Positions 12,177 through 50,400 of a DNA stretch of 64,000 nucleotides are shown here, in pieces. The position numbers and the translations under genes are program-made. A model generated the notes under the pieces. That model saw only the letters and a list, made by a program, of their open reading frames with translations. It did no database searches and was not told the DNA's origin. The first letter of the stretch is position 1. Every line of letters starts with the position of its first letter. The stretch comes from Methylococcales bacterium (GTDB lineage Bacteria; Pseudomonadota; Gammaproteobacteria; Methylococcales; Methylomonadaceae). The stretch covers positions 28,977-92,976 of the forward strand of contig JBEBJQ010000005.1 in the NCBI GenBank assembly GCA_040079795.1. Direction: 5' to 3'.

Positions 12177-12408
12177 TTATTTAGCAGCTACCGGAATTGC
12201 ATAAAAATAAGTGTTGTCGAAAGGCTTATTGTATTTCAGCATTCCGTGAATGGCATGGAGCAATTTTCGCATTACTGCGAAAACGCTCCCTAAAGGTTTC
12301 TCGCCGATGACCATTAATCAAACCAAATACGATGACGCTATTGAAACCCACATTACTCAGCGGCAGGTGTTGATACAAGCAGTGCAGAGCACCCAGGCAA
12401 ATGCTTTA
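12177..12408 (-). pseudogene. IS110-family (IS1111-like) transposase, C-terminal remnant with a frameshift
   Basis: The minus strand encodes ..LPLSNVGFNSVIVFGLING / GEKPLGSVFAVMRKLLHAIHGMLKYNKPFD-stop. The xMRKLLxxIxxMLK tail is typical of IS110/IS1111 transposases. The remnant is cut off at repeat copy A. Confidence 0.55.
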
Positions 12409-12409
12409 A

Positions 12410-12702
12410 AACCGGAGAGTCGCTCATTTTTGCTAAAGATTTTTTCGGGCATCCTGCTTGAAAAAATCTGCAAAAACTTAACGCGACGGTTTATTTTGCT
12501 GCGCAAGCCCCGATTCGTCCTGCGTCCGCCCGCTCCGACCCGGCAAGGGGATCGTCGCATAGCTCCCACAATGACTTGACGGCTATTCGGGAAGCCTCTG
12601 TATTTCGCCTGTGCTTACGCTTCGGCTCAACACCCGGCCCTGCGCCTATCGGGGACTAAAAATCTTCACTTCTCTACCGCTCCGCTTCCAAGATTTTCAG
12701 CG
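12410..12702 (-). repeat. 293-bp structured repeat, copy A (orientation given relative to copy D)
   Basis: Base-for-base identical, by eye, to 21967-22259. It contains hairpins at 12437-12469 (10-bp stem, 13-nt loop) and 12659-12697 (8-bp stem, 23-nt loop). Confidence 0.9.
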
Positions 12703-15256: not shown

Positions 15257-15522
15257 AAAATCTTCACTTCGCTGTCGCTACGTTTCCAAGATTTTCAGCG
15301 AATGACTATTTGGAGCGGGATGCGCCGATTGCGGATGAAAATTTGTTGCTGGTAATTCAGTCCTTGGCATCCTTGCACCGCGCCCAAGTGTTCGATGGCG
15401 TGGCATTGCTAAAGAAGTTCCCCAACCGCTTTGGCCCACATCATCAGGAAGATGTAGAGCGTATCTGGAGAAATTACACTTTGGTGCCAGATGAGTTAAA
15501 AGGTATTTTTTTACAGGCGTGA
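15232..15522 (+). CDS. hypothetical ORF, probably a gene fragment downstream of repeat fragment C
   Basis: The ORF's 5' part lies inside the repeat fragment, so only ~75 C-terminal codons (ERDAPIADENLLLVIQSLASLHRAQVF...) could be genuine. No family recognised. Confidence 0.25.
   Translation: MSGIYSAVENLHFAVATFPRFSANDYLERDAPIADENLLLVIQSLASLHRAQVFDGVALLKKFPNRFGPHHQEDVERIWRNYTLVPDELKGIFLQA
15257..15300 (-). repeat. structured repeat family, terminal-hairpin fragment (copy C)
   Basis: aaaatctt-23 nt-aagattttcagcg has the same stem and loop length as the hairpin at the 12659-12702 end of copy A. The loop is about 85% similar. Confidence 0.7.
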
Positions 15523-15582
15523 TCCCAGCGTGTCGCGGCTTATCCACTGTCGCAAGATCGAAAGTGTTATTTTTAAACCTGT

Positions 15583-15825
15583 TTACGCCTGCGTTGTCCT
15601 CAACAAACAATCTAACGTATCCACTAACTCACACCAATCCGAATCTTCTGCTTTGGCTTCATTCAGAAATACAGCCTGAGCTTCGTTCCAGAAACTGGCT
15701 TCAGGCAAGCTAACATCGCTGGGTAACGGTTTATATCTTTCAATAAAAGCCTTAATTTGTTGCTCTTCATCCGCTAAGCCTAATTGGCAAAATAAGCTTT
15801 GCAGTGTGTGACTTGAAGTATCCAT
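15583..15825 (-). CDS. DUF2789 family protein
   Basis: 80 aa; LFCQLGLADEEQQIKAFIERYKPLPSDVSLPEASFWNEAQAVFL matches my memory of DUF2789. Confidence 0.6.
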   Translation of the reverse strand: MDTSSHTLQSLFCQLGLADEEQQIKAFIERYKPLPSDVSLPEASFWNEAQAVFLNEAKAEDSDWCELVDTLDCLLRTTQA

Positions 15826-15842
15826 TTGAATTCCCGAGTTGA

Positions 15843-16478
15843 TTAAGAATTTTCAGCGCTGCTGAATGCGCTGGTTTTATCTTTTTCATCACGCACATTG
15901 CCAACAACCCCTGCGGTTGCAATAAAACGCAGTGCATCCTCAACCGACATGTCGATTTCTATGACATTTTTCCGGGGCATAATGACCGTGTTGCCACCTA
16001 CTTGATAGCTGAAGGGCAGAAATACTGCAACCTGGTCATCGGCGATAAACGGATGCGAACCTTCCTCAAAATCCGAAACGGTAATAAAGCCAATTTGCTG
16101 ACCCTGACCATGAAGCACATCAACCAATACCACTTTTTTAAATTTGCCTTTTTGTTCCCCGGAGAACAGCGAAATAAAATCACGGATGGCAGTATATAAG
16201 CTTTTAACCACGGGTATTTGGATCACCATTTCTTCAAAAATAGTGAATACGTTGAGGAAGGCGCGCAAGTTTAGAAAGTTTCCGAAAAAAAATACCACCG
16301 CAAGGCCTAATATAAAACCAGAACCTTTTATATACCAACTATCGGGTAGGAAAAATTTAAAGATATTGCCCAAGGCGAATTCTGCGGTGCCGGCAAGCCA
16401 GAGGAGCAGGTAAAGCGTGAGGGTGAGGGGGATAATGGCGATTAAACCTTTTAGGAAGGTTTTAGTAACGGGTGTCAT
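15843..16478 (-). CDS. DUF502 membrane protein
   Basis: 211 aa with two N-terminal TM helices followed by GFITVSDF...VFLPFSYQVGGNTVIMPRKNV, typical of DUF502. Confidence 0.65.
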   Translation of the reverse strand: MTPVTKTFLKGLIAIIPLTLTLYLLLWLAGTAEFALGNIFKFFLPDSWYIKGSGFILGLAVVFFFGNFLNLRAFLNVFTIFEEMVIQIPVVKSLYTAIRDFISLFSGEQKGKFKKVVLVDVLHGQGQQIGFITVSDFEEGSHPFIADDQVAVFLPFSYQVGGNTVIMPRKNVIEIDMSVEDALRFIATAGVVGNVRDEKDKTSAFSSAENS

Positions 16479-16521
16479 GTTTAGTATCCAATGTTAGTTA
16501 TTTGTGAGTCATGATGAGTGC

Positions 16522-16959
16522 TTATTTCAAAGTACTATTTTTAACGCGCGTTCCGAGTAAATAATCAAACCAAGGCCAAGTAACACACCAGTTTGCAGAG
16601 CTATCGCCACCGAGATGATGTTCGTAATGCCAGCGTAAGTGTTTTCGTGCCCAGCTGGGATTAAGGTGGGCTTTACGATGTTTATAGTAATAAAGCGCCA
16701 TAGAGAAATAGACTGCACAGATAAATGCGGGAAAGCTCATAAGCAGTGGCAAATGCAGACCTACAAGACCCGCTAGCAAAATCAACTCTTTGCTTTGGGC
16801 ATTCCAAGTGGTTAAGCGCAACCGTTTATAATTCATATCAAGCATATTATTTTTAATGCATTCTGCGTGGCGCTCATACCAATGATACGCCCAGAAACTG
16901 TCGCGATTTTTCCCTAATCCGTGCAGGAGATATTTGTGCATAAACCATTCCCCGGCATT
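16522..16959 (-). pseudogene. fatty-acid hydroxylase/sterol desaturase-superfamily gene, apparently 5'-truncated by repeat copy D
   Basis: Histidine boxes are present (HKYLLH, HRKAH, HYEHH). The frame is open upstream of the ATG at 16941 (..AGEWFMHKYLLHG) and runs straight into the repeat boundary at 16960 without the usual N-terminal TM region. Confidence 0.5.
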
Positions 16960-17245
16960 CGCTGAAAAACATGGAAACGGAGCGTGAGCGAAGTGATGTT
17001 TTTTAGTCCCCGGTAGGCGAAGGGAAATGCGCCAATCCGACGTGCGCGATAGCGCGCGAGGGAGGCAAGCATTTTATCCCGAAGAGCCGTAGAGTCATTG
17101 TGGTAGCCTTGACGTAGTAGGTGGCGAAGCGTAGTACGTAGTCGAGGCGGACGCAGGACGAAGCGGGGCTAGATTGATTCGCCGCGTGGCGAATCGATTT
17201 TTGTGACAGGGAGGTCCAAAAATCTTCTATGAGGCGCACTGTGGC
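16960..17245 (+). repeat. structured repeat family, diverged full-length copy D
   Basis: It is collinear with the reverse complement of copies A/B. Shared blocks are TTTTAGTCCCCGxTAGGCG, CCCGAAxAGCCGTxxAGTCATTGTGGxAGC and GGCGGACGCAGGACGAAxCGGGGCT. Hairpins at 16965-17003 and 17196-17224 keep their loop lengths with compensatory stem changes. The right boundary is approximate. Confidence 0.8.
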
Positions 17246-17552
17246 GCGCAGAATTATTGAGATAGAGAGATTATCTCATAATCTTGTGACGACAGTATCT
17301 GATCTGACAGACACACTGCATCTTTGCCGGAAAGGCGAGTTTTTACGTTAGTTGAATCATCTGGCTAATCAGGACTTTTTACAGGATTGATTTGCAAGCA
17401 GTTGTCCTTAATTACCCAGAAAGCTAGCCTTGATCTCATATAAACAAATCAGTTGTTTTAGTGTGCATTGCAAACAATTCAGCCGAAGTTAAGCTTGGAA
17501 CAGGATAATCCAAAGCTACCGTTAGTTTGTTTATTTTTTATAGGGAACAGTT

Positions 17553-21966: not shown

Positions 21967-22259
21967 AACCGGAGAGTCGCTCATTTTTGCTAAAGATTTT
22001 TTCGGGCATCCTGCTTGAAAAAATCTGCAAAAACTTAACGCGACGGTTTATTTTGCTGCGCAAGCCCCGATTCGTCCTGCGTCCGCCCGCTCCGACCCGG
22101 CAAGGGGATCGTCGCATAGCTCCCACAATGACTTGACGGCTATTCGGGAAGCCTCTGTATTTCGCCTGTGCTTACGCTTCGGCTCAACACCCGGCCCTGC
22201 GCCTATCGGGGACTAAAAATCTTCACTTCTCTACCGCTCCGCTTCCAAGATTTTCAGCG
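21967..22259 (-). repeat. 293-bp structured repeat, copy B
   Basis: Identical to 12410-12702 but with unrelated flanks. It lies between the convergent genes aspS and cysM. Confidence 0.9.
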
Positions 22260-41498: not shown

Positions 41499-44400
41499 TT
41501 ATTCATCAGTAACATTGGCAAACATTTGTTCCACTTTATCGTCTTGAGTGTCATAAGCTTCAGCTTGCTTACCCGATTTAAGGGATTTTGACGCTTTATT
41601 AGACTTTACTACAATAGGCAGCGGATCGAAACCTTTTAATAAGGGTATTGAGGGTAATAAGCTGGCTAATAAGGCGCCGCCTCTGAGTATCCAACTGACA
41701 AAACCCGCGGTTAAGGTGACTGTCGAAAAAATCATGACTTCAAGGTTTTCAGTTGTTTGCTCAGTATGGTTTTGTTCTATTGTTTCACGCATTGCCGCTA
41801 ATTTTTGCCAGAGGGCTTGTTCTTCGCTTGCCGTAAAGAGCGTTTCCAAATCAACATTAAACTCATTTTCTTGGTTGTCCATTACATGGCTGAGGGTGAT
41901 GTTCTGGAGCGTTTCCTTGAATGAAATAATTTGCGGTTTTTTTAATGCAAGGGCATCGTCTTCAAGAATGTCTTTGAGGCTATGGCGTGTTGTTGCGGCT
42001 TGGTCATCAAATACAGGGGTGTTTTCAACAACTATATTGGTGTTAATAAGGTTTGCAATAAACTTATCCAAGCTATTGTTGAAGGCCAAAGCGCTAGAGG
42101 AACCATCAGGTTCTGAATGCCCATTCAGTTTAATATTGGTAAAAGCTTGATTTGGTTCTGAATAAGCCGGGTTTTGTGGTAATTGCGTTAATATTAAAAG
42201 CGGGTTGTTTAAATTATTTTCAACTACAGCAGGTTGGATTAAAGTCGCTTGAACGATAGCCGTCGGTTGAGTCGTATTCACGACTGGCAAGCTATTGGGT
42301 GTAGTCGTTTCTTTGATTGGTGTGTTAATGGGTGTATCTGAAACTTCAAAGAGCCTGCTACTGCTCATGACACTTTTAGTAAGGCCCGCTTTGTCAGTAT
42401 AAAAAATTTGGACACTGATTTTACTGCCAATATCTTGGTCAGACAGGACGTAGCTGGAATTCGTAGCATCTATAACCGCTACCCCGTTTCTAAACCATTG
42501 ATAGCCGCTAACATGAATGTTTTCTATGTTGGTAATACCCAAAGTGTCTATGTTGAGTATTTGATTAACTTGCATCGAACCGATAATCACGGGTGCGCTA
42601 ACAGGGATTGTTGGGGTGCCAATAATTATGGCGGTATCCTCACTGCTTTTACTTTCAGGGGTTCCGTGAGCGTCGGTATAACTTGCTACCACGCGAATAA
42701 CGTTGTTCACATCGGATAATCCCAATACATAGCTATTGCCGTTTGCACCTGGAATATCCACCCCGTTGCGTTGCCATTGATAATGAATGGCACCCAACCC
42801 ATCGGCATCGGTTAGGCTGTTACCGGCTATGAGGGTTTGGCCTTGAGACGCAGTACCGGTAATGGTGACTGTCCCGAAAGGCGCATCGTTAATATTGCTG
42901 ACTGGCGCAGTTAATGTGCTATTTACGCTTTCTGGGTTGCCAGAACCATCAATGTAACTGGCTTTTACGCTGATCTGTTGACCAACATCAGCATCTCCTA
43001 AAGTGTAAGTCTTGCCGTTAGCACCATTAATAATGGCGTTGTTACGAAACCATTGATAGCTAAATTCCCCTAAGCCATTGTCGTCGCTAATATCACTGGT
43101 ATCTACAGTGAGCGTACCATCTTCTGTCACGATGCCCATAATCACCGGAAGACCTAACGAGGTATGGTTGCTTGGTGTTTCAAGCAAGTTCTCCACCTTC
43201 ACTGTAAAGTTTAAACTAGCGCTGTTATTTTTACTATCGGTAGCAGTTAGGGTCACTTGGTAGACATTATCAGTATTAGCATCCTGCGGGTTTTCAAAGT
43301 CACGCGCTGCCATGCTGACCACCCCGGTTGCGGGGCTGACGCTGAACAGGCCGGCATCAGCGCCGCTTAAAGTGTACACCACCGTCCCAACCGGGCTGCC
43401 GGTCAAGCTTGGGGTAGGGCTGGTAAAGGCGGTATTTTCATTAATACTGACATTGCTTAAGCCACTTAAGTTTAAGGTAGCACTTTCGGCAATGTTCAAT
43501 ACCTGTACGCTAAAACTTAAGCTGGTGCTGTTATTGTCGCTGTCGGTAACGGTCAGGGTCACTTGATAGCTATTATTGTTGTCGCTATCCTCAGGGTTTT
43601 CAAAGTCACGCGCTGCCATGCTGACCACCCCGGTTGCGGGGCTGACGCTGAACAGGCCGGCATCAGCGCCGCTTAAAGTGTACACCACCGTCCCAACCGG
43701 GCTGCCGGTCAAGCTTGGGGTAGGGCTGGTAAAGGCGGTATTTTCATTAATACTGACATTGCTTAAGCCACTTAAGCTTAAGGCCGCGCTTTCGGCCGTA
43801 TTGTTTATTTGAATGGCAAGCGTTTGGGTCGCCACACCACCATTACCGTCATTTACTTGTATGGTGACATCATAAATGTTGTCATGATTAAAATCACCAG
43901 GAGTTTCGTAATCAGGGGGGGACGTAAAACTGAGTACCCCGGAATTAGGATCAATACTGAATAACCCTTGATCATCGCCGCCATAAAGGCTGTACACCAG
44001 TTTTTGTGCAGGCAGATCGATATCTGTAGCAGTCACAGTAGTTACTATGCCGATGTTTTCCGCCAAACTGATTGAGGCTGTACTTCCTCCACCGTTACTA
44101 ATGATCAATGGTGCATCATTGCTTGCAATAACGGTCAGACCCGCACTATCTGTATGGTGGGAAAACGCGGTACTGCCGCCATTACTGGAGGTGCTGGCAA
44201 AGCTACCATTACTGCCGGTGCTTAAATCCCATGCGCGAAAATCGAGTGCATTAGCCAGTGTTCCATTCCAGTTTGCATCCGGCTGAAAGTAAATGCGGGT
44301 GTTATTATCGGCAGCTAATAAAAGTGCATTGCTGCTGCTGAGAATACCAGTTGGATTCCAGTTGCTGCCATTATCGATTGAATACCACCAGCTACCGTGG

Positions 44401-47400
44401 CTAGTATCAACCGACCGGATTGCTATACCCAATTGTGCACCTGTATCGGGATCAACAACATTGTCGAGTTGCCCGGCTGGTAATGTAAAGTCAACCAAAT
44501 CTTCAACCCGTGTGCCCACTGTACCGACTGGTATACCTGAACCTTCATTCATTGCTGTAAGCACTGGATCCGCTGAAGTATTAAGGATTGGCGCATCATT
44601 CACTGCTGTAATCGAAATGCTACCGGATAATGTGGCGCTTATGCCGCCATCACCGTCTGTCAAATAGCCTTCCAACACGCGGGCAGTCGATGACGGGGCG
44701 TTTGAGGTGTTCTCGTAGGTTACATTTCTGGCTATGTCTTGAACTATCGCCAAACTGGCGTTGCTATTAAACGTTACAACTAAGGGCGTATAACCCGTTA
44801 CCGGTCCGTTAAAGCTTGCCACTACGATGCCGTTATAAAGAATATCGCTGCCGCTAACATCGACCTGATTGGTATGGTGACCTTCATTTCTGACCGTTAA
44901 TCGATCTTCAGGCAAGCCATTTGCAGAAATAGTAATGACCAATTGACCCGTATCAAAATCCGCTGAATCAATATCGGTTATTAGCGCTCCAGAGGCTAAT
45001 AGAAACGGACCATCGTTTTCAGGAACAGTTGGATTACCTGAAACAAAAGTGATGCTCGGCGCATCATTTTGAGGGGTAACTGTAATCGTGACCGTGACTA
45101 CTTGAGACCATAATAAACCGTCACCGGCTATATAGCTGAAGGTATCGGTGCCATTAAAATTAGCGGTTGGCGTATAAACAATATTGCCGCCCGTGGTGAA
45201 GTTAAAGACACTGTAATGGGAAGGGAAGTTAACCAGCGCGGCGGTCAAGGCAGTCCCTTCAATATCCATATCGTTTGCGAGCACACCGGGGGCTGCGATA
45301 GTCAGGGTGCCGTCTTCTGCTACTGTATAGCTGTCTGCTGTTGCTACAGGTGCGTCATTCATTGCACTGATGATAATAGGCGCGCTGTCGCTAGTAGCGG
45401 AATAAGCGGTACTGCCGCCATTTATTGAAGCGTCGGCTAGCGTGCCATTACTACCAAAGCCCTGGTCCCAGGCACGAAAGGTAATGGCATCGCTTATACT
45501 GCCGCTGTAGTTAGCATTTGCTTGAAAATACAAACGGGTAACCGAATCGGCATTTAATAACAGCGCTGACGTATCGCTTACGCTGCCCACCGTATTCCAG
45601 GACGACCCGTTATCTGTGCTATAGAACCAGATACCATTGCTGTTGTTGGCTCCAGTCAAGGCAATGCCTAATCCAGAAAGCGCATCAGCATCTGTGACAT
45701 TGTCTAGTTGTCCGCCTGGCGTTGCAAAATCAACCAATGTCGACACCAGGGTTCCTGCTGCACCGCTGGGTGAGGCATTATCTTCAGCGATTGAGTTTAG
45801 CGCAGGGCTTTTAGACATATCCAGCACAGGCGCATCATTAACTGTTGTGACCGAGATTGCAGAATTATCGGTACCGGTGCTAAATGCTGTAGTGCCGCCA
45901 TTACTGCTGGTGTCAACTTTGGTTCCTTCAGTGCCTGCGGTTTGATCCCAAAAGCGGTAGCTAAGTGAAGCGGATGTGGCAGTTAAGCTGTCCGGTACAA
46001 AGCGCACCCGATCGGTTTCTTTTAACAGTAAAGCGGAATTACTGCTGACTGAACCCACGGCATACCATTGAGCTCCGTTATCCAGGGAGTATTCCCAATA
46101 ACCATTGCCATCGTTAGTTGAAATGAGCGCAATGCCGATTTGATCGGCTGGATCTAAATCTTGATAGGCATTTATGCTAATAAAGCTACCATGACTAATA
46201 AACGATTTAACCGTCTCACCCGCGTTGGACGTTTGATCTTCGGTAATGGCTGTTAAGCTGTAACCTTGCGGCGCAGCCAGAGGCGCGTCATTAATATTGG
46301 TCACCGTGATGCTGGCAGTATCTGTTGCCATACTAAAAGCGCTTGTGCCGCCATTTGCCGAGGCGTTACCCAAGTTCCCGCTTATCCCCACACTCAGATC
46401 CCAGGCGTGGTAGGTAAAACTAACGGTTTCCCCTTGTGCCTGGTCAGGATGGTAACGTATTAAATCAGTTGCGCCGAGCAACCGGGCTGAGCTTTCGCTT
46501 ACCGCCCCGATCCAAGCCCAGTTACTTCCGCCGTCAATGGAATATTCCCAATAGCCGACCGTACCCGTGCTTACATCCGTAATGGCAATACCTTGCAGCG
46601 CGCCGCTATCAACATCACTGATGGAGTTACCCAAGAAGGATGCAACTGTTTGTCCGGGATTAGCAATATTGTCTTCAGTAATGGTTGTTAACGTTGGTGC
46701 TATGGGTGAGAGCACGGGTGCATCATTGACAGACGTAATATTGACAATGCTGCTGCCGTTGCTACTCGCCGGACCGCCAGTGCCTTGTGCGCCACTGTTG
46801 TTGTCATTAATAATCCAGTTAATTTGCACACTGGCTGGTGGTGTACTGCTATTATTGCTGTAGGCAATCTGCTGCATCGCCTGGTTTACCAAGATATTGG
46901 TCGCACTTGCATTGAATGTAAATGTCAAAGTGCCTCCGCTGTTGGTTGTGACAGCACCAATCGTGCTAGCACCCACTACTAAGGCATTGCCTTGGGTCAG
47001 CGTACCCAGAGAGCCGCTGGCGTTGAACACATCCTGCGCGTTCACTCCGTTTGAGCGAGCGAGTGTGAGCGTAGCACCATTAAAGTTGTCCGCTGCCGTT
47101 AATTCTGGATCTGTAATTGTCACATCACTGTCCAGTAAGACTGCTGCACCCCCTTGGGTATAAGTTGGAGTACCATCGAGGTTGCTGAATATCGGCGCAT
47201 TATTGGCAACTCCGGTTCCGGTTAAGTCCACTTCGCCGGTGGCGGTATTGCTGATGCCTCCGTCTCCATCAGTGACCACAACGGAGATTGTGCGTATGCC
47301 TAACGTGGGCGTAACTGAAGTCGTACCGAAGGTGATAGACTGGTAGACTGCCTGCACCTTAGCAACTTGCGCGTTGGCATTGAAGTTCACCGAGAGGAGT

Positions 47401-50400
47401 GTGCCGTTCGAGCCACCGGACCATGTACCTACCGTGACACCATCGACCAACACATTCGAGCCAGATAGAGAGACACCGCCGATTCCGAGTAACAGCAGAA
47501 AGTCTGTGTTTTCGCCAGAGCTTATAGTGGCCGTGAGCGAACCACCGTTGAAGTCGGGACTGTCAGGGTCGGTGAGCGTCACCACGCCCGTGAATGGATT
47601 TGCCCAGTTACTCACCGTCGCGAAGGCAGAGCCACCATCGGTAAGCATAGGTGCGTCATTCACAGCTGTCACCGTGATTGCTGTGCTGGCGGTCTGGCTA
47701 ACAAGCCGCCCCACATTCGGTGCAGACAGTAAAGGTGTCGTTGTCGAAAATGTGTCCGGGCCGGAATAGCTGGCGTTAAGGCCTGCACCACCGGTATCCT
47801 GCGCATAGTGCAGTTCAATGCTGTGCTGGCCAGCAGTGAGTGTTGCGGTGTTTGAACTACTGCCGAACCAAGCTAACAGCACTTGGGTGCCATCGACGAA
47901 CAGGGTGGCCGCATCATCGGCAGCTACCGTGAATGTGTAAGTACCGGCCGTGGTGACATTCAGAATACCAGAGTAGATCACACCAAAAGTGGTGGTGCTG
48001 CCAGTCAAGGTATTAGCAAGGCTGGGCGCACTTAAATTCGTAGCCACACCAGTCATGCCGCCCGTGACCGAAATCAGGTTGGGGTTGGAGCCTGTGGGTG
48101 CGCCGTCCTGGAACCGGTAGTCAAATGTGCCTGCGGCTAAACTGCCGCCGATGCCGGTGTTCAGGCCGTCCGAAGTCACCATTGTGAGTGTAACCGCGCC
48201 ATTTGAGTTGGTCGCACCGGTGTAGGTCGGCTTCGCAGCGCTGGCCAGGTAGGCATTCAAATCGGTCAAGGTACCCGTGAGTATCAACGTTGAAGTGCCC
48301 GATCCGGTCACGTTCACCGCCCCGCCGCTGCTAGCGGATAAGGTTCCGCTACTGACCGTCAACTCGGTGCGTAACGTGCTGCTGCCAGCATCTGGGTCGG
48401 TGATGGAAAGGCCAGCGATGGCTGTCGTGCTGTCTTCGTTGAACGTCAACGTGGCCGGTACAGTGTTTACAGGCAAAATGTTGACCGCTAAAACAGTTAT
48501 GGGGGTAGTATTTGTAGGTGTTAGGGAGCTATCGTTTGCCAAAGCGGCAACTTCACCTGCGGAGAGAACCCGATTATAAATACGTGCGTCGTCAATTTTA
48601 CCGTTAAAATCAAAGGTTGTACCGCCGTTTCCATGCCTACCGATGAAGCTGTCTATCCCCAATGTGTAGTGTATTGAATCGGTAGTCGTTATTGAGCCTA
48701 CTAAAGTGCCATCAAGGTATAGCGCAGTCTTATCGCCGGTATCATCGAAGCTGAAAGCCACATGATGCCAACCAGTCCCGGCTAAAAGAGTGTTGTAAGT
48801 GGTGCCTATCCAGGTGCTACCATTATAAAACCCTCCAATAAGGCCACCGCTCCCATCCAGCCTAATCAATACGTTGTCACCCAGGGAAATTACATCAGCT
48901 CCGCCAGCACTGGCAGTATTGAGGTTGACCCATGCGGACAAGGTTACATTGGTTGGGCTGCCAAAAAAACCGGGGGTTTGGATATAAGCATTACCACCAA
49001 GACTTAAAACATTGCCGCGGGTGGCATCATTGAGCGCGGTAGCGCCATCGACAGTACCAGGGTAAGCCGCCGCTGGACTGCTGTCTGTTCCTAATGCGCT
49101 GGTGTTTTCGAAGGCATAACGTCCTTTCAGGCTTGTATCGATATTCAGGCTATACAAGGTAGAATCGAGCGTACTCAAGGTCAGAGTTGCAATACCATTA
49201 AAATTGTTGGTAGGTGTAAAATCCAATCCATTCAGAGCATTATTCAGGTCGGAGACTGTCCCGCTAAAAGTCATGGTACTGTCAGCAGCCCCACTGCCGC
49301 TGGTGAAGGATAAGCCGCTAACGCTAGCCAGCGCCAGTGTTCCGTTGCTAACAGAGAGGGTGACCTCTAAGGGGCTGCTTCCGGCATTAGCGTCATTTAC
49401 CGATAGTTGATTACCATTTGCAGACGAAAAAATGAGCGATGAGTTATAACTGGTAGTCTGGGCACCGGGTGTCGTATTACTTGGTGTGCTATTGCTAGCC
49501 ATTGCCGATAGGGATATATTCCGTGTTGCAATAGAACTATTAGCTAAGCCATCGTTAACGAAAAATGATAGGGTGCGTGTCGCCAAACTGGGATTGCTGG
49601 AAGAATTGAAATATGCAATGCTACGTAACGCACTCTGGTAATTGGCCACCGTGGCGCTGCCACTGAGCGTCAATACCCCGGTGCTGGCATTCCAACTGCC
49701 AGTAATACCATTTTGATTGGTAAAAGCCAGTGTGTCTTGACCGTTAACATAGCCTGAAGAAATTGACACAGTAGCACTAGCCATATGGGTGCTGTCTACA
49801 TCGCTTAGAGTAAGTGCATTATCGACTGCCGTAGCCGGGTCGTTATGTGTATAACCCATTGCACTGCCGGTGGTGCTGACGATGGGAGTATCGTTGACCG
49901 CCGTGATGGTGATATTTACGGGCGCCTGTGGCGAGTTTGACGCCAAACTTGCGACTTCGGAAACATCGAGCGCACGGTTGTAAAGCACAACTCCATCAAT
50001 TTCTCCATTGGCATTCAGAAATCGCGTCGGATCGAGATCTGATCGCGCACCGAGGTATACATTACCTACTGGATCAATGCTGTCACTGCCCGTGGCTAAT
50101 GAACCTAGCAGCCCTCCATCCACATAGACTTGCGTACCGATCCCGGCTGTTACGGTCATTGTGTAAAGATGCCATTGTCCGTCGCCGATGAGGGTGCTGA
50201 CATCCGTATAAATCTGTCCACTGGTGTCATTGGAATCCCACACTGTGGTGACCAGATTATTTACTGGGGTGGAACCAATGTAACTGGATTCAGTAAGAGC
50301 CACCTGGATGGTATTGGGAGAATTCGGAATAGCGCCGTGGCTGTATAAATATTGCAACCCTGTGCCGCTGTTATCATCTACTTTGAAATATAACGCCAGT

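What the first reader, a model, noticed from the sequence alone, without database searches (positions are those of the whole stretch)
16960..17245. A diverged third copy shows compensatory stem substitutions and exactly conserved loop lengths, the signature of a selected nucleic-acid structure
Seen: copy D, on the opposite strand, aligns collinearly with A/B. Sequence is conserved in three blocks: TTTTAGTCCCCGxTAGGCG, CCCGAAxAGCCGTxxAGTCATTGTGGxAGC and GGCGGACGCAGGACGAAxCGGGGCT. The segments between the blocks are largely different. Hairpin 1 reads AAAATCTT/AAGATTTT in A/B and AAAAACAT/ATGTTTTT in D. That is two positions changed on each arm in a pairing-preserving way, and the loop is 23 nt in A, B, C and D. 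Hairpin 3 reads AGATTTTTTC/GAAAAAATCT versus GATTTTTG/CAAAAATC, with the closing C-G swapped to G-C and a 13-nt loop in both. AGTCCCCG near one end can pair with CGGGGCT ~170 nt away in both versions. Inference: the element is maintained for its fold. It could be an RNA (ncRNA or a guide-RNA-like scaffold of a mobile element) or single-stranded DNA recognised by a transposase.
Basis: seen in the sequence. Interest (0 to 1): 0.72.

Follow-up and report, generated by a model that had tools for sequence, protein, structure and literature searches.

The report
Structured mobile repeat without inverted ends
The flagged 290-base stretch is one copy of a previously uncatalogued, protein-less mobile DNA repeat of methane-oxidising bacteria; evolution has kept its single-strand, RNA-like three-domain fold, and it inserts without the usual transposon footprints, so what moves it is unknown.

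Summary
Copy D (16960-17252, +) is a diverged relative of two identical copies, A (12412-12702, -) and B (21969-22259, -), and of a solo first hairpin, C (15257-15300, -).

I recovered about 150 further copies from Methylococcales, Methylophaga and Rickettsiella. They fall into 34 subfamilies at 95% identity.
- On an alignment of the 34 representatives, 89.8% of cells pair and 52 of 81 pairs show compensatory double changes. Controls with slid partners give 40-44% pairing.
- The fold is strand-specific. G.U outnumbers A.C 252 to 56, and the sense strand is the more stable one in 34 of 34 representatives.

The element is mobile.
- Near-identical copies lie in unrelated flanks.
- Three insertions inside genes, compared with intact alleles or homologues, show exact insertion with no target-site duplication.
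- There are no terminal inverted repeats.
- The only target preference is a C four bases upstream (58 of 74 flanks).
- No transposase, TnpB, IscB or reverse transcriptase is consistently linked, and no Rfam 15 family matches.
- Group II introns and an IS110-family element use the element as a landing site.

Best reading: a non-autonomous selfish element that propagates through a folded single strand, moved in trans by an unidentified enzyme. It resembles the protein-less IS200/IS605 derivatives that carry guide-RNA scaffolds, but it fails their target-motif test. I rate it a new variant of a known kind, of fairly high interest.

The parts
16960..17252 (+). Copy D: full-length diverged element of the 'D-type', which has its own version of the 3' domain.
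   Evidence: The start, CGCTGAAAAAC, is the exact family boundary. The 3' end is placed at GGCGC plus 5 nt, by analogy with the D-type mini-copy whose insertion site is resolved. The nhmmer hit has E = 2.6e-71.
16961..17007 (+). It is a 10-12 bp stem (GCUGAAAAAC.. with ..GUUUUUUAGU) that includes two conserved G.U pairs. The loop holds two short helices, a G/A-rich internal loop and a GNNA apical loop.
   Evidence: This is helix 1: 93.5% paired, with 5 of 10 pairs showing double changes. Whole-stem swaps are seen in L026, L035, L047, L088 and the Rickettsiella copies.
17008..17014 (+). 5' strand of the helix that closes the central domain (CCCCGGU). It pairs with AGCGGGG inside block 3.
   Evidence: This is helix 4: 98.5% paired. 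The A/G at column 83 covaries with column 260. D has a G.G mismatch there.
17085..17103 (+). Conserved block 2 (AGCCGUAGAGUCAUUGUGG). GCCG pairs back to the 5' AGGCG. GUC.UUGUG pairs with CGCAGGAC of block 3.
   Evidence: These are helices 5, 10 and 11. Helix 5 has 4 of 5 pairs with double changes (GGCG/CGCC, GCCG/CGGC, GGCA/UGCC, GCUG/CAGC).
17146..17170 (+). Conserved block 3 (GGCGGACGCAGGACGAAGCGGGGCU). It forms the 3' strands of helices 10, 11 and 4 and holds the near-invariant unpaired GACGAA.
17176..17252 (+). D-type 3' domain. A short tail follows.
   Evidence: Minimum-free-energy fold. The same domain occurs in D-type relatives L003, L011, L059 and L158.
12412..12702 (-). Copy A: full-length element of the 'A-type', whose 3' domain is closed by GUCGC/GCGAC.
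   Evidence: Over 296 nt (12407-12702) it is identical to B, while the flanks differ.
21969..22259 (-). Copy B: identical twin of A. It lies 24 nt after the stop codon of cysM, between the convergent genes cysM and aspS.
15257..15300 (-). Copy C: solo P1 hairpin, a remnant or internal-deletion derivative.

Best explanation
The flagged stretch is one copy of a high-copy, protein-less (non-autonomous) transposable element of about 245-310 nt. The family spreads in gammaproteobacteria, mainly methanotrophs.

Shown
- It is mobile.
- It inserts exactly, without duplicating the target and without inverted termini.
- Insertion sites favour a C four bases upstream.
- One strand of the element has been kept able to fold into three domains: a 5' hairpin (P1), a central multi-helix domain closed by CC.CGAU/AUCG.GG, and a 3' hairpin domain followed by a subfamily-specific tail of 4-5 nt.

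Inferred
- The fold is needed for the element's own propagation rather than for the host, because individual young copies accumulate pair-breaking changes.
- I commit to this mechanism: a trans-encoded enzyme excises and pastes one strand, in a 'peel-and-paste'-like or rolling-circle-like reaction. It recognises the terminal hairpins and cuts after C-N-N-N at the left flank, and probably at the right end too.
- The conserved central domain most likely works as RNA: a scaffold for a trans-acting protein, by analogy with omega-RNA-bearing IS200/IS605 derivatives.
- The enzyme itself is not identified.
For: Mobility
- A and B are identical in different flanks.
- Six near-identical copies with unrelated flanks occur in one Methylomonas MAG.
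- There are 88 full-length copies with flanks, falling into 34 clusters at 95% identity.

Exact insertion without target-site duplication, shown three times
- Serine recombinase gene. The empty allele reads CACTAT^CCAAAC. The occupied allele reads CACTAT|CGCTG...CCCCGC|CCAAAC. The intact 448-aa allele was found at 100% identity.
- Rickettsiella protein. It carries a 246-nt in-frame insert that is absent from 482-488-aa homologues.
- IS200-family tnpA gene, interrupted by an 84-nt mini-copy.

Ends and target
- There are no inverted termini; this is by inspection of the end sequences (no formal test).
- The left-flank logo has C at -4 in 58 of 74 flanks.

Fold
- 89.8% of cells pair, 52 of 81 pairs have double changes, and the covariation score is 0.299 against 0.05-0.09 for slid controls.
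- Strand specificity: G.U 252 against A.C 56, and six G.U-majority columns against none for A.C. The sense strand is more stable in 34 of 34 representatives.

Modularity
- Variants lacking the central domain (L028, L018 mini) or the 3' domain (L094) still keep P1 and the tail.
- A composite with an outer left end and an outer right end sits in L032.

Decay of copies
- Of 42 singleton changes at consensus pairs, 21 break the pair.

Precedent
- Protein-less IS200/IS605 derivatives (PATEs) that carry omega RNAs are described in PMC10055086.
Against: - No enzyme is linked to the element. About 800 kb around roughly 150 copies holds no recurrent transposase. One TnpB and one Y1 TnpA lie nearby, but without a left-end/gene/right-end arrangement.
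- The IS200/IS605 hallmark is absent in either orientation: there is no conserved 4-5-nt motif abutting one end.
- P1 starts at base 2 of the element. That leaves no room for a DNA guide 5' of the hairpin, as IS608 has (established knowledge of IS608).
- Covariation along the whole length is more than a hairpin-binding transposase should need.
- No internal promoter or terminator was found, and there is no significant orientation bias relative to neighbouring genes (18 against 11). How an RNA would be made is therefore open.
- RNA and single-stranded DNA cannot be told apart from sequence.
Confidence: 0.4

Rival explanations
1. Retro-element. The about 290-nt structured RNA is itself the transposition intermediate. 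A reverse transcriptase supplied in trans, for example by the group II introns abundant in the same genomes, copies it into DNA. It would be a bacterial SINE-like element.
For: - The whole-length, strand-specific, RNA-like fold is what an RNA intermediate would need in order to be recognised.
- Both ends are precise and there is no target-site duplication.
- Group II intron reverse transcriptase/maturase genes lie in or next to copies in at least 7 loci.
Against: - There is no internal promoter.
- The 5'-truncated copies are explained by intron or IS insertion or by internal deletion, not by the 5' truncation typical of target-primed reverse transcription.
- Introns sit at several different positions inside the element, the pattern of a target rather than a partner.
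- From my own knowledge, no bacterial precedent exists.
Confidence: 0.2
2. Host-useful dispersed repeat of the REP, ERIC or BIME kind. The fold would be selected locus by locus because it stabilises or terminates neighbouring mRNAs or binds a nucleoid protein. Mobility would be incidental or ancient.
For: - Most copies are intergenic. A lies 38 nt and B 24 nt after a stop codon.
- Singleton substitutions are somewhat rarer in paired columns than in unpaired ones (0.83% against 1.24%), and half of those at pairs keep the pair.
- REP-type repeats are known landing sites for IS elements (PMC1525189), as seen here.
Against: - Half of the recent changes at pairs break them.
- Identical copies in unrelated flanks show recent spread.
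- Copies interrupt genes.
- There is no orientation bias relative to neighbouring genes, and no terminator-like end was found.
- The family crosses orders, from Methylococcales to Rickettsiella.
Confidence: 0.15
3. A true IS200/IS605-family PATE. Its central and 3' domains would be an omega-RNA scaffold for a TnpB or IscB nuclease encoded elsewhere, and a Y1 TnpA would move it.
For: - Insertion leaves no target-site duplication, and the ends are asymmetric with hairpins.
- The size matches IscB-type omega RNAs.
- P1 abuts the element boundary in the way a guide-adjacent stem would.
- Y1 TnpA and TnpB genes exist on methanotroph plasmids that carry copies.
- PATEs carrying omega RNAs are known.
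Against: - No conserved motif abuts either end. Positions -1 to -3 are nearly free, and the right flank is unconstrained.
- The permissive Rfam scans (E up to 10 for A and D, up to 1 for ten other loci) listed no omega-RNA family.
- None of about 150 copies lies next to tnpB or iscB in the expected arrangement.
- One copy has even inserted into an IS200 tnpA gene.
Confidence: 0.12
4. A new kind of self-splicing or reverse-splicing ribozyme (an intron-like element).
For: - Insertion is exact and leaves no target-site duplication.
- Two of the three insertions inside genes are in the sense orientation.
- Unpaired nucleotides in the core are conserved.
Against: - The third insertion inside a gene is antisense.
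- The Rickettsiella insert is an open, in-frame 82-codon segment, which is what translation rather than splicing would require.
- The flanks show no pairing partner beyond a single C.
- No group I or group II intron family was listed on the element in any Rfam scan.
Confidence: 0.04

Closest known systems
PATEs: protein-less IS200/IS605 derivatives, some of which carry omega-RNA scaffolds (Meers et al. 2023, PMC10055086)
   Same: Both are non-autonomous and a few hundred nt long. Both have asymmetric ends with hairpins, leave no target-site duplication and lack inverted termini. Both carry a structured non-coding RNA-like module and depend on factors supplied in trans.
   Different: No 4-5-nt adjacent target motif is present; there is only a C at -4. 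The hairpin sits right at the boundary. No Rfam family matched, including the omega-RNA models it holds. No tnpA, tnpB or iscB gene is linked.
REP/BIME/REPIN and ERIC intergenic repeats of gammaproteobacteria
   Same: Both are high-copy and mostly intergenic. Both are fold-forming and strand-asymmetric, and both are used as landing sites by IS110/IS1111-type elements.
   Different: This element is about ten times longer than a REP. It has a three-domain nested fold with long-range helices rather than a simple palindrome. It has no GTAG motif, and no RAYT gene flanked by copies was seen.
Rickettsia palindromic elements (RPE)
   Same: Both are structured repeats that can sit in frame inside protein-coding genes. 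Here a 246-nt, 82-codon insert lies in a Rickettsiella protein.
   Different: This is a resemblance recalled from memory; sequence similarity was not tested. The host range is different, most copies are intergenic, and the in-frame case is a single one.
Classical bacterial MITEs (Correia elements, QMITE1 and QMITE2 of Coxiella; PMC5896051)
   Same: Both are short, non-autonomous and multi-copy. Both can overlap genes. QMITE2, like this element, is a hot spot for IS1111/IS110-type insertion.
   Different: Classical MITEs have terminal inverted repeats and direct target duplications. This element has neither.
IS91/ISCR/Helitron-type rolling-circle elements
   Same: Both lack a target-site duplication and inverted termini. 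Both have a hairpin near the 3' end followed by a short conserved tail, and both have minimal target requirements. A composite arrangement resembling end bypass is seen in L032.
   Different: No HUH Y2 transposase was found. IS91's tetranucleotide target is absent. Whole-length fold conservation is not a feature of these elements.

Membership tests
IS200/IS605 PATE with omega RNA | Insertion without target-site duplication | tested here: met
   Three insertion sites were resolved.
IS200/IS605 PATE with omega RNA | Conserved 4-5-nt transposon-adjacent motif directly abutting the left end, in either orientation | tested here: not met
   Only C at -4 is constrained (58 of 74 flanks). Positions -1 to -3 and the right flank are nearly free.
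IS200/IS605 PATE with omega RNA | Ends shared with an element that encodes tnpA, tnpB or iscB | tested here: not met
   No such arrangement was found among about 150 copies and 800 kb of flanks. The single TnpB (L159) and Y1 TnpA (L158) are separate elements.
IS200/IS605 PATE with omega RNA | Match to a known omega-RNA covariance model (HEARO RF02033, RF03065, RF02998) | tested here: not met
   No Rfam hit at the gathering threshold, and no omega-RNA family was listed in the permissive scans: E up to 10 for A and D, up to 1 for ten other loci.
Classical MITE (derived from a DDE transposon) | Terminal inverted repeats and a direct target-site duplication | tested here: not met
   The ends CGCTG... 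and ...CCCCGC/...GCCTA/...GCTTG are not inverted copies of each other; this is by inspection (no formal test). No duplication is present.
IS110/IS1111 (bridge-RNA or seekRNA elements) and serine-recombinase IS607 | A specific target of about 10-14 nt, or the same core dinucleotide repeated at both junctions | tested here: not met
   Near-identical copies have unrelated flanks. No dinucleotide is repeated at the resolved junctions.
Group II intron | 5' GUGYG, 3' AY, domain V/VI, D1-D4 models | tested here: not met
   The element starts with CGCUG. Rfam intron models hit only the introns inserted into or beside copies, never the element itself.
REP/REPIN (moved by a RAYT transposase) | A 20-40-nt palindrome with a 5' GTAG, and a RAYT gene flanked by inverted REPs | tested here: not met
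   The size and the three-domain fold differ. The two genes between the inverted copies C and D are a DUF502 protein and a weak fatty-acid-hydroxylase match, not Y1 enzymes.
Any Rfam 15 RNA family | Score at or above the family's gathering threshold | tested here: not met
   No hits in the whole window. In the permissive scans of the A and D regions and of ten other loci, only weak, unrelated matches fell on or near the element, apart from group II intron sequence beside the copy in L059.
Structured functional RNA (generic) | Transcription of the sense strand with defined ends | not testable with these tools
   No expression data are held. No consensus promoter or terminator lies inside the element.

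The most novel reading that the evidence does not exclude
The element is a new class of RNA-centred mobile element. It would be a protein-less, roughly 290-nt structured RNA, with three covarying domains, G.U pairs and GNNA loops. This RNA would be either the transposition intermediate or the essential cofactor of a still unknown trans-acting enzyme. The result would be exact insertion, with no target-site duplication and almost no sequence preference, unlike any described IS, MITE or intron family.
Probability: 0.2. Interest if true: 0.9.

Novelty: new variant of a known kind. Interest (0 to 1): 0.68.

Why it matters
- Scale and absence from catalogues. Copy density is one per 18-36 kb in the window and on one Methylomonas plasmid. 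If that density holds genome-wide, a genome would carry on the order of a hundred or more copies. The family matched no Rfam 15 family, and seven literature searches returned no description of it.
- A missing mechanism. The element combines two features that known families do not combine. Covariation runs along its whole length, as in a functional RNA. Its insertion chemistry leaves no duplication, needs no inverted ends and has almost no target requirement. Finding what moves it could reveal a new transposition or RNA-guided mechanism.
- Practical effects. The repeat breaks metagenome assemblies of methanotrophs, because contigs end in it. It creates in-frame protein insertions. It also serves as a landing pad for group II introns and IS110-type elements.
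- Testability. Cultured isolates carry copies on their plasmids: Methylobacter sp. YRD-M1 and Methylomonas sp. AM2-LC and UP202. The question can therefore be tested directly.

Tried and rejected
- Known RNA family: rejected. Five Rfam scans found nothing on the element (one search hit only the inserted introns).
- Coding gene: rejected. No reading frame stays open across subfamilies. Only the four closely related Rickettsiella-type copies share an open sense frame.
- Terminal inverted repeats or a target duplication: none found.
- Autonomous parent: not found. I clustered 1092 ORFs from all loci, ran Pfam on the recurrent ones, and ran tblastn with the TnpB, Y1 TnpA, IS110 and group II reverse transcriptase sequences found along the way. 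Only introns and IS elements inserted into copies turned up. The plasmid hits that looked 'hairpin-1 only' proved to be full but diverged copies.
- Serine-recombinase or IS110-type core-dinucleotide model: rejected on the junction sequences.
- Insertion next to hairpins or terminators: rejected. Left flanks fold no better than shuffles.
- Internal promoter or terminator: none found.
- Orientation bias relative to neighbouring genes: not significant.
- Empty site for copy B: failed. The syntenic cysM-aspS spacer of a 96%-identical relative is too diverged to align.
- Empty sites among the fetched loci, searched with flank BLAST: none found.
- Pseudoknot search by pairwise covariation: uninformative, because it was swamped by phylogenetic signal from the Rickettsiella clade.
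- Whether the 84-nt mini-variant is itself mobile: undecided. Only one instance was found.
- Literature: seven searches found no description of the element.

Full report
**1. The observation**

The window holds three full copies and one fragment of the same repeat.
- A lies at 12412-12702 (-) and B at 21969-22259 (-). They are identical over 296 nt while their flanks differ.
- D lies at 16960 to about 17252 (+) and is a diverged copy that aligns collinearly with A and B.
- C, at 15257-15300 (-), is the first hairpin alone.
- The 25-nt block GGCGGACGCAGGACGAANCGGGGCT occurs three times, against zero expected from shuffles.

- Hairpin 1 has two compensated positions between A/B/C and D, with a 23-nt loop in A, B, C and D.
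- Hairpin 3 has a swapped closing pair, with a 13-nt loop in both versions.
- D folds far better than shuffled sequence (z = -4.7). A folds less strikingly (z = -2.06).

**2. Context in the window**

The copies lie between ordinary housekeeping genes: aspS, cysM, an amidohydrolase and a TPR/2OG-oxygenase gene. No transposase is adjacent. The window comes from a MAG labelled 'Methylococcales bacterium'. Rfam 15 has no match, either at gathering thresholds or in permissive scans.

**3. Relatives elsewhere**

- A pattern scan of one genome per species found the element in Methylomonas, Methylomicrobium, Methylomarinum and other Methylococcales MAGs. One Methylomonas MAG has six near-identical copies. 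It also turned up in a Methylophaga MAG and a Rickettsiella MAG.
- A gapped pattern scan of metagenomes returned 117 contigs.
- A profile search then found about 160 hits. Of these, 92 are full-length, and they fall into 34 clusters at 95% identity.
- Plasmids of cultured Methylobacter sp. YRD-M1 and Methylomonas sp. AM2-LC (8 places) and UP202 carry copies. So does a plasmid from a Methyloprofundus metagenome assembly.
- Phage records have none.

**4. The structure is real and strand-specific**

RNAalifold on the 34 representatives gives three modules followed by a tail of 4-5 nt.
- P1 is the 5' hairpin.
- The central domain is closed by CC(N)CGAU with AUCG(N)GG. It contains the helices AGGCG/CGCC and GUC.UUGUG/CGCAGGAC and a variable long hairpin.
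- The 3' domain is closed by GUCGC/GCGAC.

Counting pairs on this alignment gives the following.
- 89.8% of cells are paired.
- 52 of 81 pairs show changes on both sides.
- The covariation score is 0.299.
- With partners slid by 1-3 columns, pairing falls to 40-44% and the score to 0.05-0.09.
- None of 500 shuffles reaches the observed values.

Whole stems are exchanged between subfamilies.
- P1: GAAAAUC/GAUUUUU becomes GAUCGCC/GGCGAUU, or CUAGCC/GGCUGG.
- 3' closing helix: GUCGC/GCGAC becomes GUCCC/GGGAC, GCCAGC/GCUGGC, or GUGACGG/CCGUCAC.

The fold belongs to one strand.
- G.U cells outnumber A.C cells 252 to 56, and six columns are G.U in the majority against none for A.C.
- The sense strand is more stable than the antisense strand in 34 of 34 representatives: mean -106.5 against -85.8 kcal/mol for single sequences, and -97.7 against -77.0 for the consensus folds.

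P1's loop contains two short helices, a G/A-rich internal loop and a GNNA apical loop. The Rickettsiella version replaces the two G.U pairs at the foot of P1 with tandem G.A (my reading). These features are typical of RNA, but they do not prove RNA.

The register is CC.CGAU with AUCG.GG.

**5. It is a mobile element with unusual footprints**

The 5' boundary is exactly CGCTG in every copy (CGACG in the Rickettsiella type). The 3' boundary follows the last helix by a tail of 4-5 nt that is specific to each subfamily: CCCGC, TTAC, GCTTG, TATC or GCCTA. The termini are not inverted repeats of each other.

Three insertions inside genes give the exact sites.
- (i) In L032 a copy interrupts a large serine recombinase gene. 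I reconstructed the uninterrupted 448-aa protein, and it exists at 100% identity. Its DNA reads GATCGCACTAT^CCAAACAAAAAGG, whereas the occupied allele reads ...CACTAT|CGCTGAAAATC...AGCGACTCCCCGC|CCAAAC. There is no duplication, and the junction is ambiguous by one base only.
- (ii) In Rickettsiella a 246-nt copy lies in frame and in the sense orientation inside a 578-aa protein. Homologues of 482-488 aa lack exactly these 82 residues (..NLPS|SDEP..). The inferred empty site is CTTCCTT^CTTCTGATG.
- (iii) In L018 an 84-nt mini-copy (P1 plus the tail hairpin) sits antisense inside an IS200-family tnpA gene. In the element's orientation the site is ..AGCTGT^TTTTCC.., with no duplication and no ambiguity.

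Across 74 distinct left flanks the only strong constraint is a C at -4 (58 of 74). There is a weak T at -5 and a pyrimidine at -1. All three resolved sites obey this rule. Several subfamily tails also carry a C four bases before the right junction. This hints at a C-N-N-N cut rule at both ends, but that is inference only.

**6. What these footprints exclude**

- Classical MITEs derived from DDE transposons are excluded, because there are no inverted termini and no duplication.
- IS110/IS1111 and serine-recombinase models are excluded. Near-identical copies have unrelated flanks, and no core dinucleotide is repeated at the junctions.
- The IS200/IS605 model fails its defining test in either orientation, because no 4-5-nt motif abuts an end.
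- Group I and II introns are excluded by the end sequences and the Rfam models. The antisense insertion into a gene and the translated-looking in-frame insert also argue against splicing.

**7. The search for a partner**

I clustered all ORFs of 120 aa or more from the loci. No recurrent transposase emerged. The recurrent mobile-element genes turned out to be invaders of the element.
- Group II intron reverse transcriptase/maturase genes with Rfam-confirmed intron RNA domains lie inside P1's loop or in mid-element in L081, L095, L128, L036, L076 and L111. A truncated intron abuts a copy in L059.
- An IS110-family transposase lies next to a copy cut at ..CGGCG^TCAAGTCATT.. in L075 and L113.
- A TnpB gene lies divergently beside one copy on the Methylobacter plasmid. 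An IS200 TnpA lies 1.3 kb from another on the Methyloprofundus plasmid. Neither shows a left-end/gene/right-end arrangement.

**8. Further tests**

- No promoter or terminator consensus lies inside the element.
- There is no significant orientation bias relative to neighbouring genes: upstream neighbours are 18 same-strand against 11 opposite, and downstream 13 against 13.
- Left flanks show no excess of hairpins.
- No reading frame is conserved.
- Deletion variants exist. L028 and the L018 mini-copy lack the central domain, and L094 lacks the 3' domain. All of them keep P1 and the tail.
- Within young subfamilies, singleton substitutions are somewhat rarer at paired columns (48 in 5770) than at unpaired ones (56 in 4518). 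Half of those at consensus pairs break the pair (21 of 42). Selection for the fold therefore acts mainly on the lineages that propagate, as expected for a selfish element.

**9. Interpretation**

- Shown: this is a mobile, non-autonomous element family with a strand-specific fold under selection, and with exact insertion that leaves no target-site duplication.
- Inferred: it propagates through a folded single strand handled by a trans-acting enzyme. I favour a single-strand DNA cut-and-paste or rolling-circle-like reaction, with the central domain acting as an RNA scaffold. This is modelled on omega-RNA-bearing PATEs (PMC10055086). It works like them, but it is not a member, because it fails the target-motif, model-match and linkage tests.
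- Rivals: a retro-element copied by a trans reverse transcriptase, a host-useful REP/ERIC-like repeat, a true PATE, and a new ribozyme.

**10. Novelty**

No Rfam family matches, and I found no description in seven literature searches. I rate it a new variant of a known kind (non-autonomous structured repeats). There is a real chance, about 0.2, that it represents a new RNA-centred mobility mechanism.

Noticed in passing
L081:236-2264, L095:~240-2128, L128:~513-2529, L036, L076, L111, L059:571-1027: Group II introns lie inside the element, either in the loop of hairpin 1 after AGCG/AGTG-like sites or in mid-element. They carry reverse transcriptase/maturase ORFs and Rfam D1-D4 and domain V/VI hits. 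In L059 a 5'-truncated intron abuts the 3' end of a copy. The repeat is a preferred landing site for at least two intron lineages.
   Followed up: partly
L075:654-1672 (-), with the junction at 1749/1750; the same junction in L113: An IS110-family transposase gene, split into two ORFs, lies next to a copy truncated at ..CGGCG^TCAAGTCATT... It probably targets the element's most conserved core. The family assignment rests on my reading of the translated sequence; Pfam was not run.
   Followed up: partly
L021:1285-1530 (-), the same as L102: A 246-nt copy is inserted in frame and in the sense orientation in a 578-aa Rickettsiella protein (P0241). It adds 82 residues that are absent from the 482-488-aa homologues P0242-P0245. 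All four Rickettsiella-type copies keep this sense frame open, which recalls the Rickettsia palindromic elements.
   Followed up: yes
L032:1652-2258 (-): A prophage-type large serine recombinase gene is disrupted by a composite: a 5' partial copy, 125 nt of foreign DNA, and then a full copy. The intact allele exists in other samples (L160, L161). The arrangement looks as if an outer left end and an outer right end were mobilised together.
   Followed up: partly
L018:6989-7075: An IS200-family tnpA (Y1 transposase) gene is interrupted by an 84-nt mini-copy of the element, inserted antisense.
   Followed up: yes
window 15257-17007: The solo hairpin C (-) and the hairpin 1 of D (+) form a 48-nt inverted pair. 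It brackets 1.65 kb that holds a DUF502 gene (15843-16478) and a 139-aa ORF with a weak fatty-acid-hydroxylase match (16522-16941). D starts only 19 nt upstream of that ORF's start codon, on the other strand.
   Followed up: partly
window 43188-43793 and about 42876-49913: Two tandem 300-nt direct repeats (88% identical) and a recurring 33-40-nt motif spread over 7 kb. These are probably the internal repeats of a very large surface-protein gene.
   Followed up: no
L016:~890-1090 and ~1415-1610; similar stretches in L014, L017, L020, L022: The flanks of one Methylomonas copy match several other places in the same MAG at 75-93% identity over 80-170 nt. This is a second, unrelated repeat family in that genome.
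   Followed up: no
L158:6080-6290: Five or more direct repeats of about 20 nt (AACGATCAATCTGTCGTCAT and variants) lie on the Methyloprofundus plasmid. They look like iterons. They sit between a copy of the element and an IS200-like element.
   Followed up: no
L003:3036-3330: A copy about 89.5% identical to D sits on a contig binned as 'Candidatus Dormibacteraeota'. This is more likely a binning error or a recent transfer than native occurrence.
   Followed up: no
L159:4826-6283: On the Methylobacter sp. YRD-M1 plasmid a 368-aa TnpB gene (OrfB_IS605 plus Cas12f1-like TNB domains) starts 68 nt from the 5' end of a full copy, in divergent orientation. This is a single case, and it is unclear which element inserted next to which.
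   Followed up: partly
L152 (a 4724-nt Logan contig covering the window's 333-aa ORF to aspS genes, between copies D and B): The only other contig carrying the window's exact AspRS ends close to where copies D and B lie in the window. This suggests that the repeat breaks short-read assemblies of these genomes.
   Followed up: no
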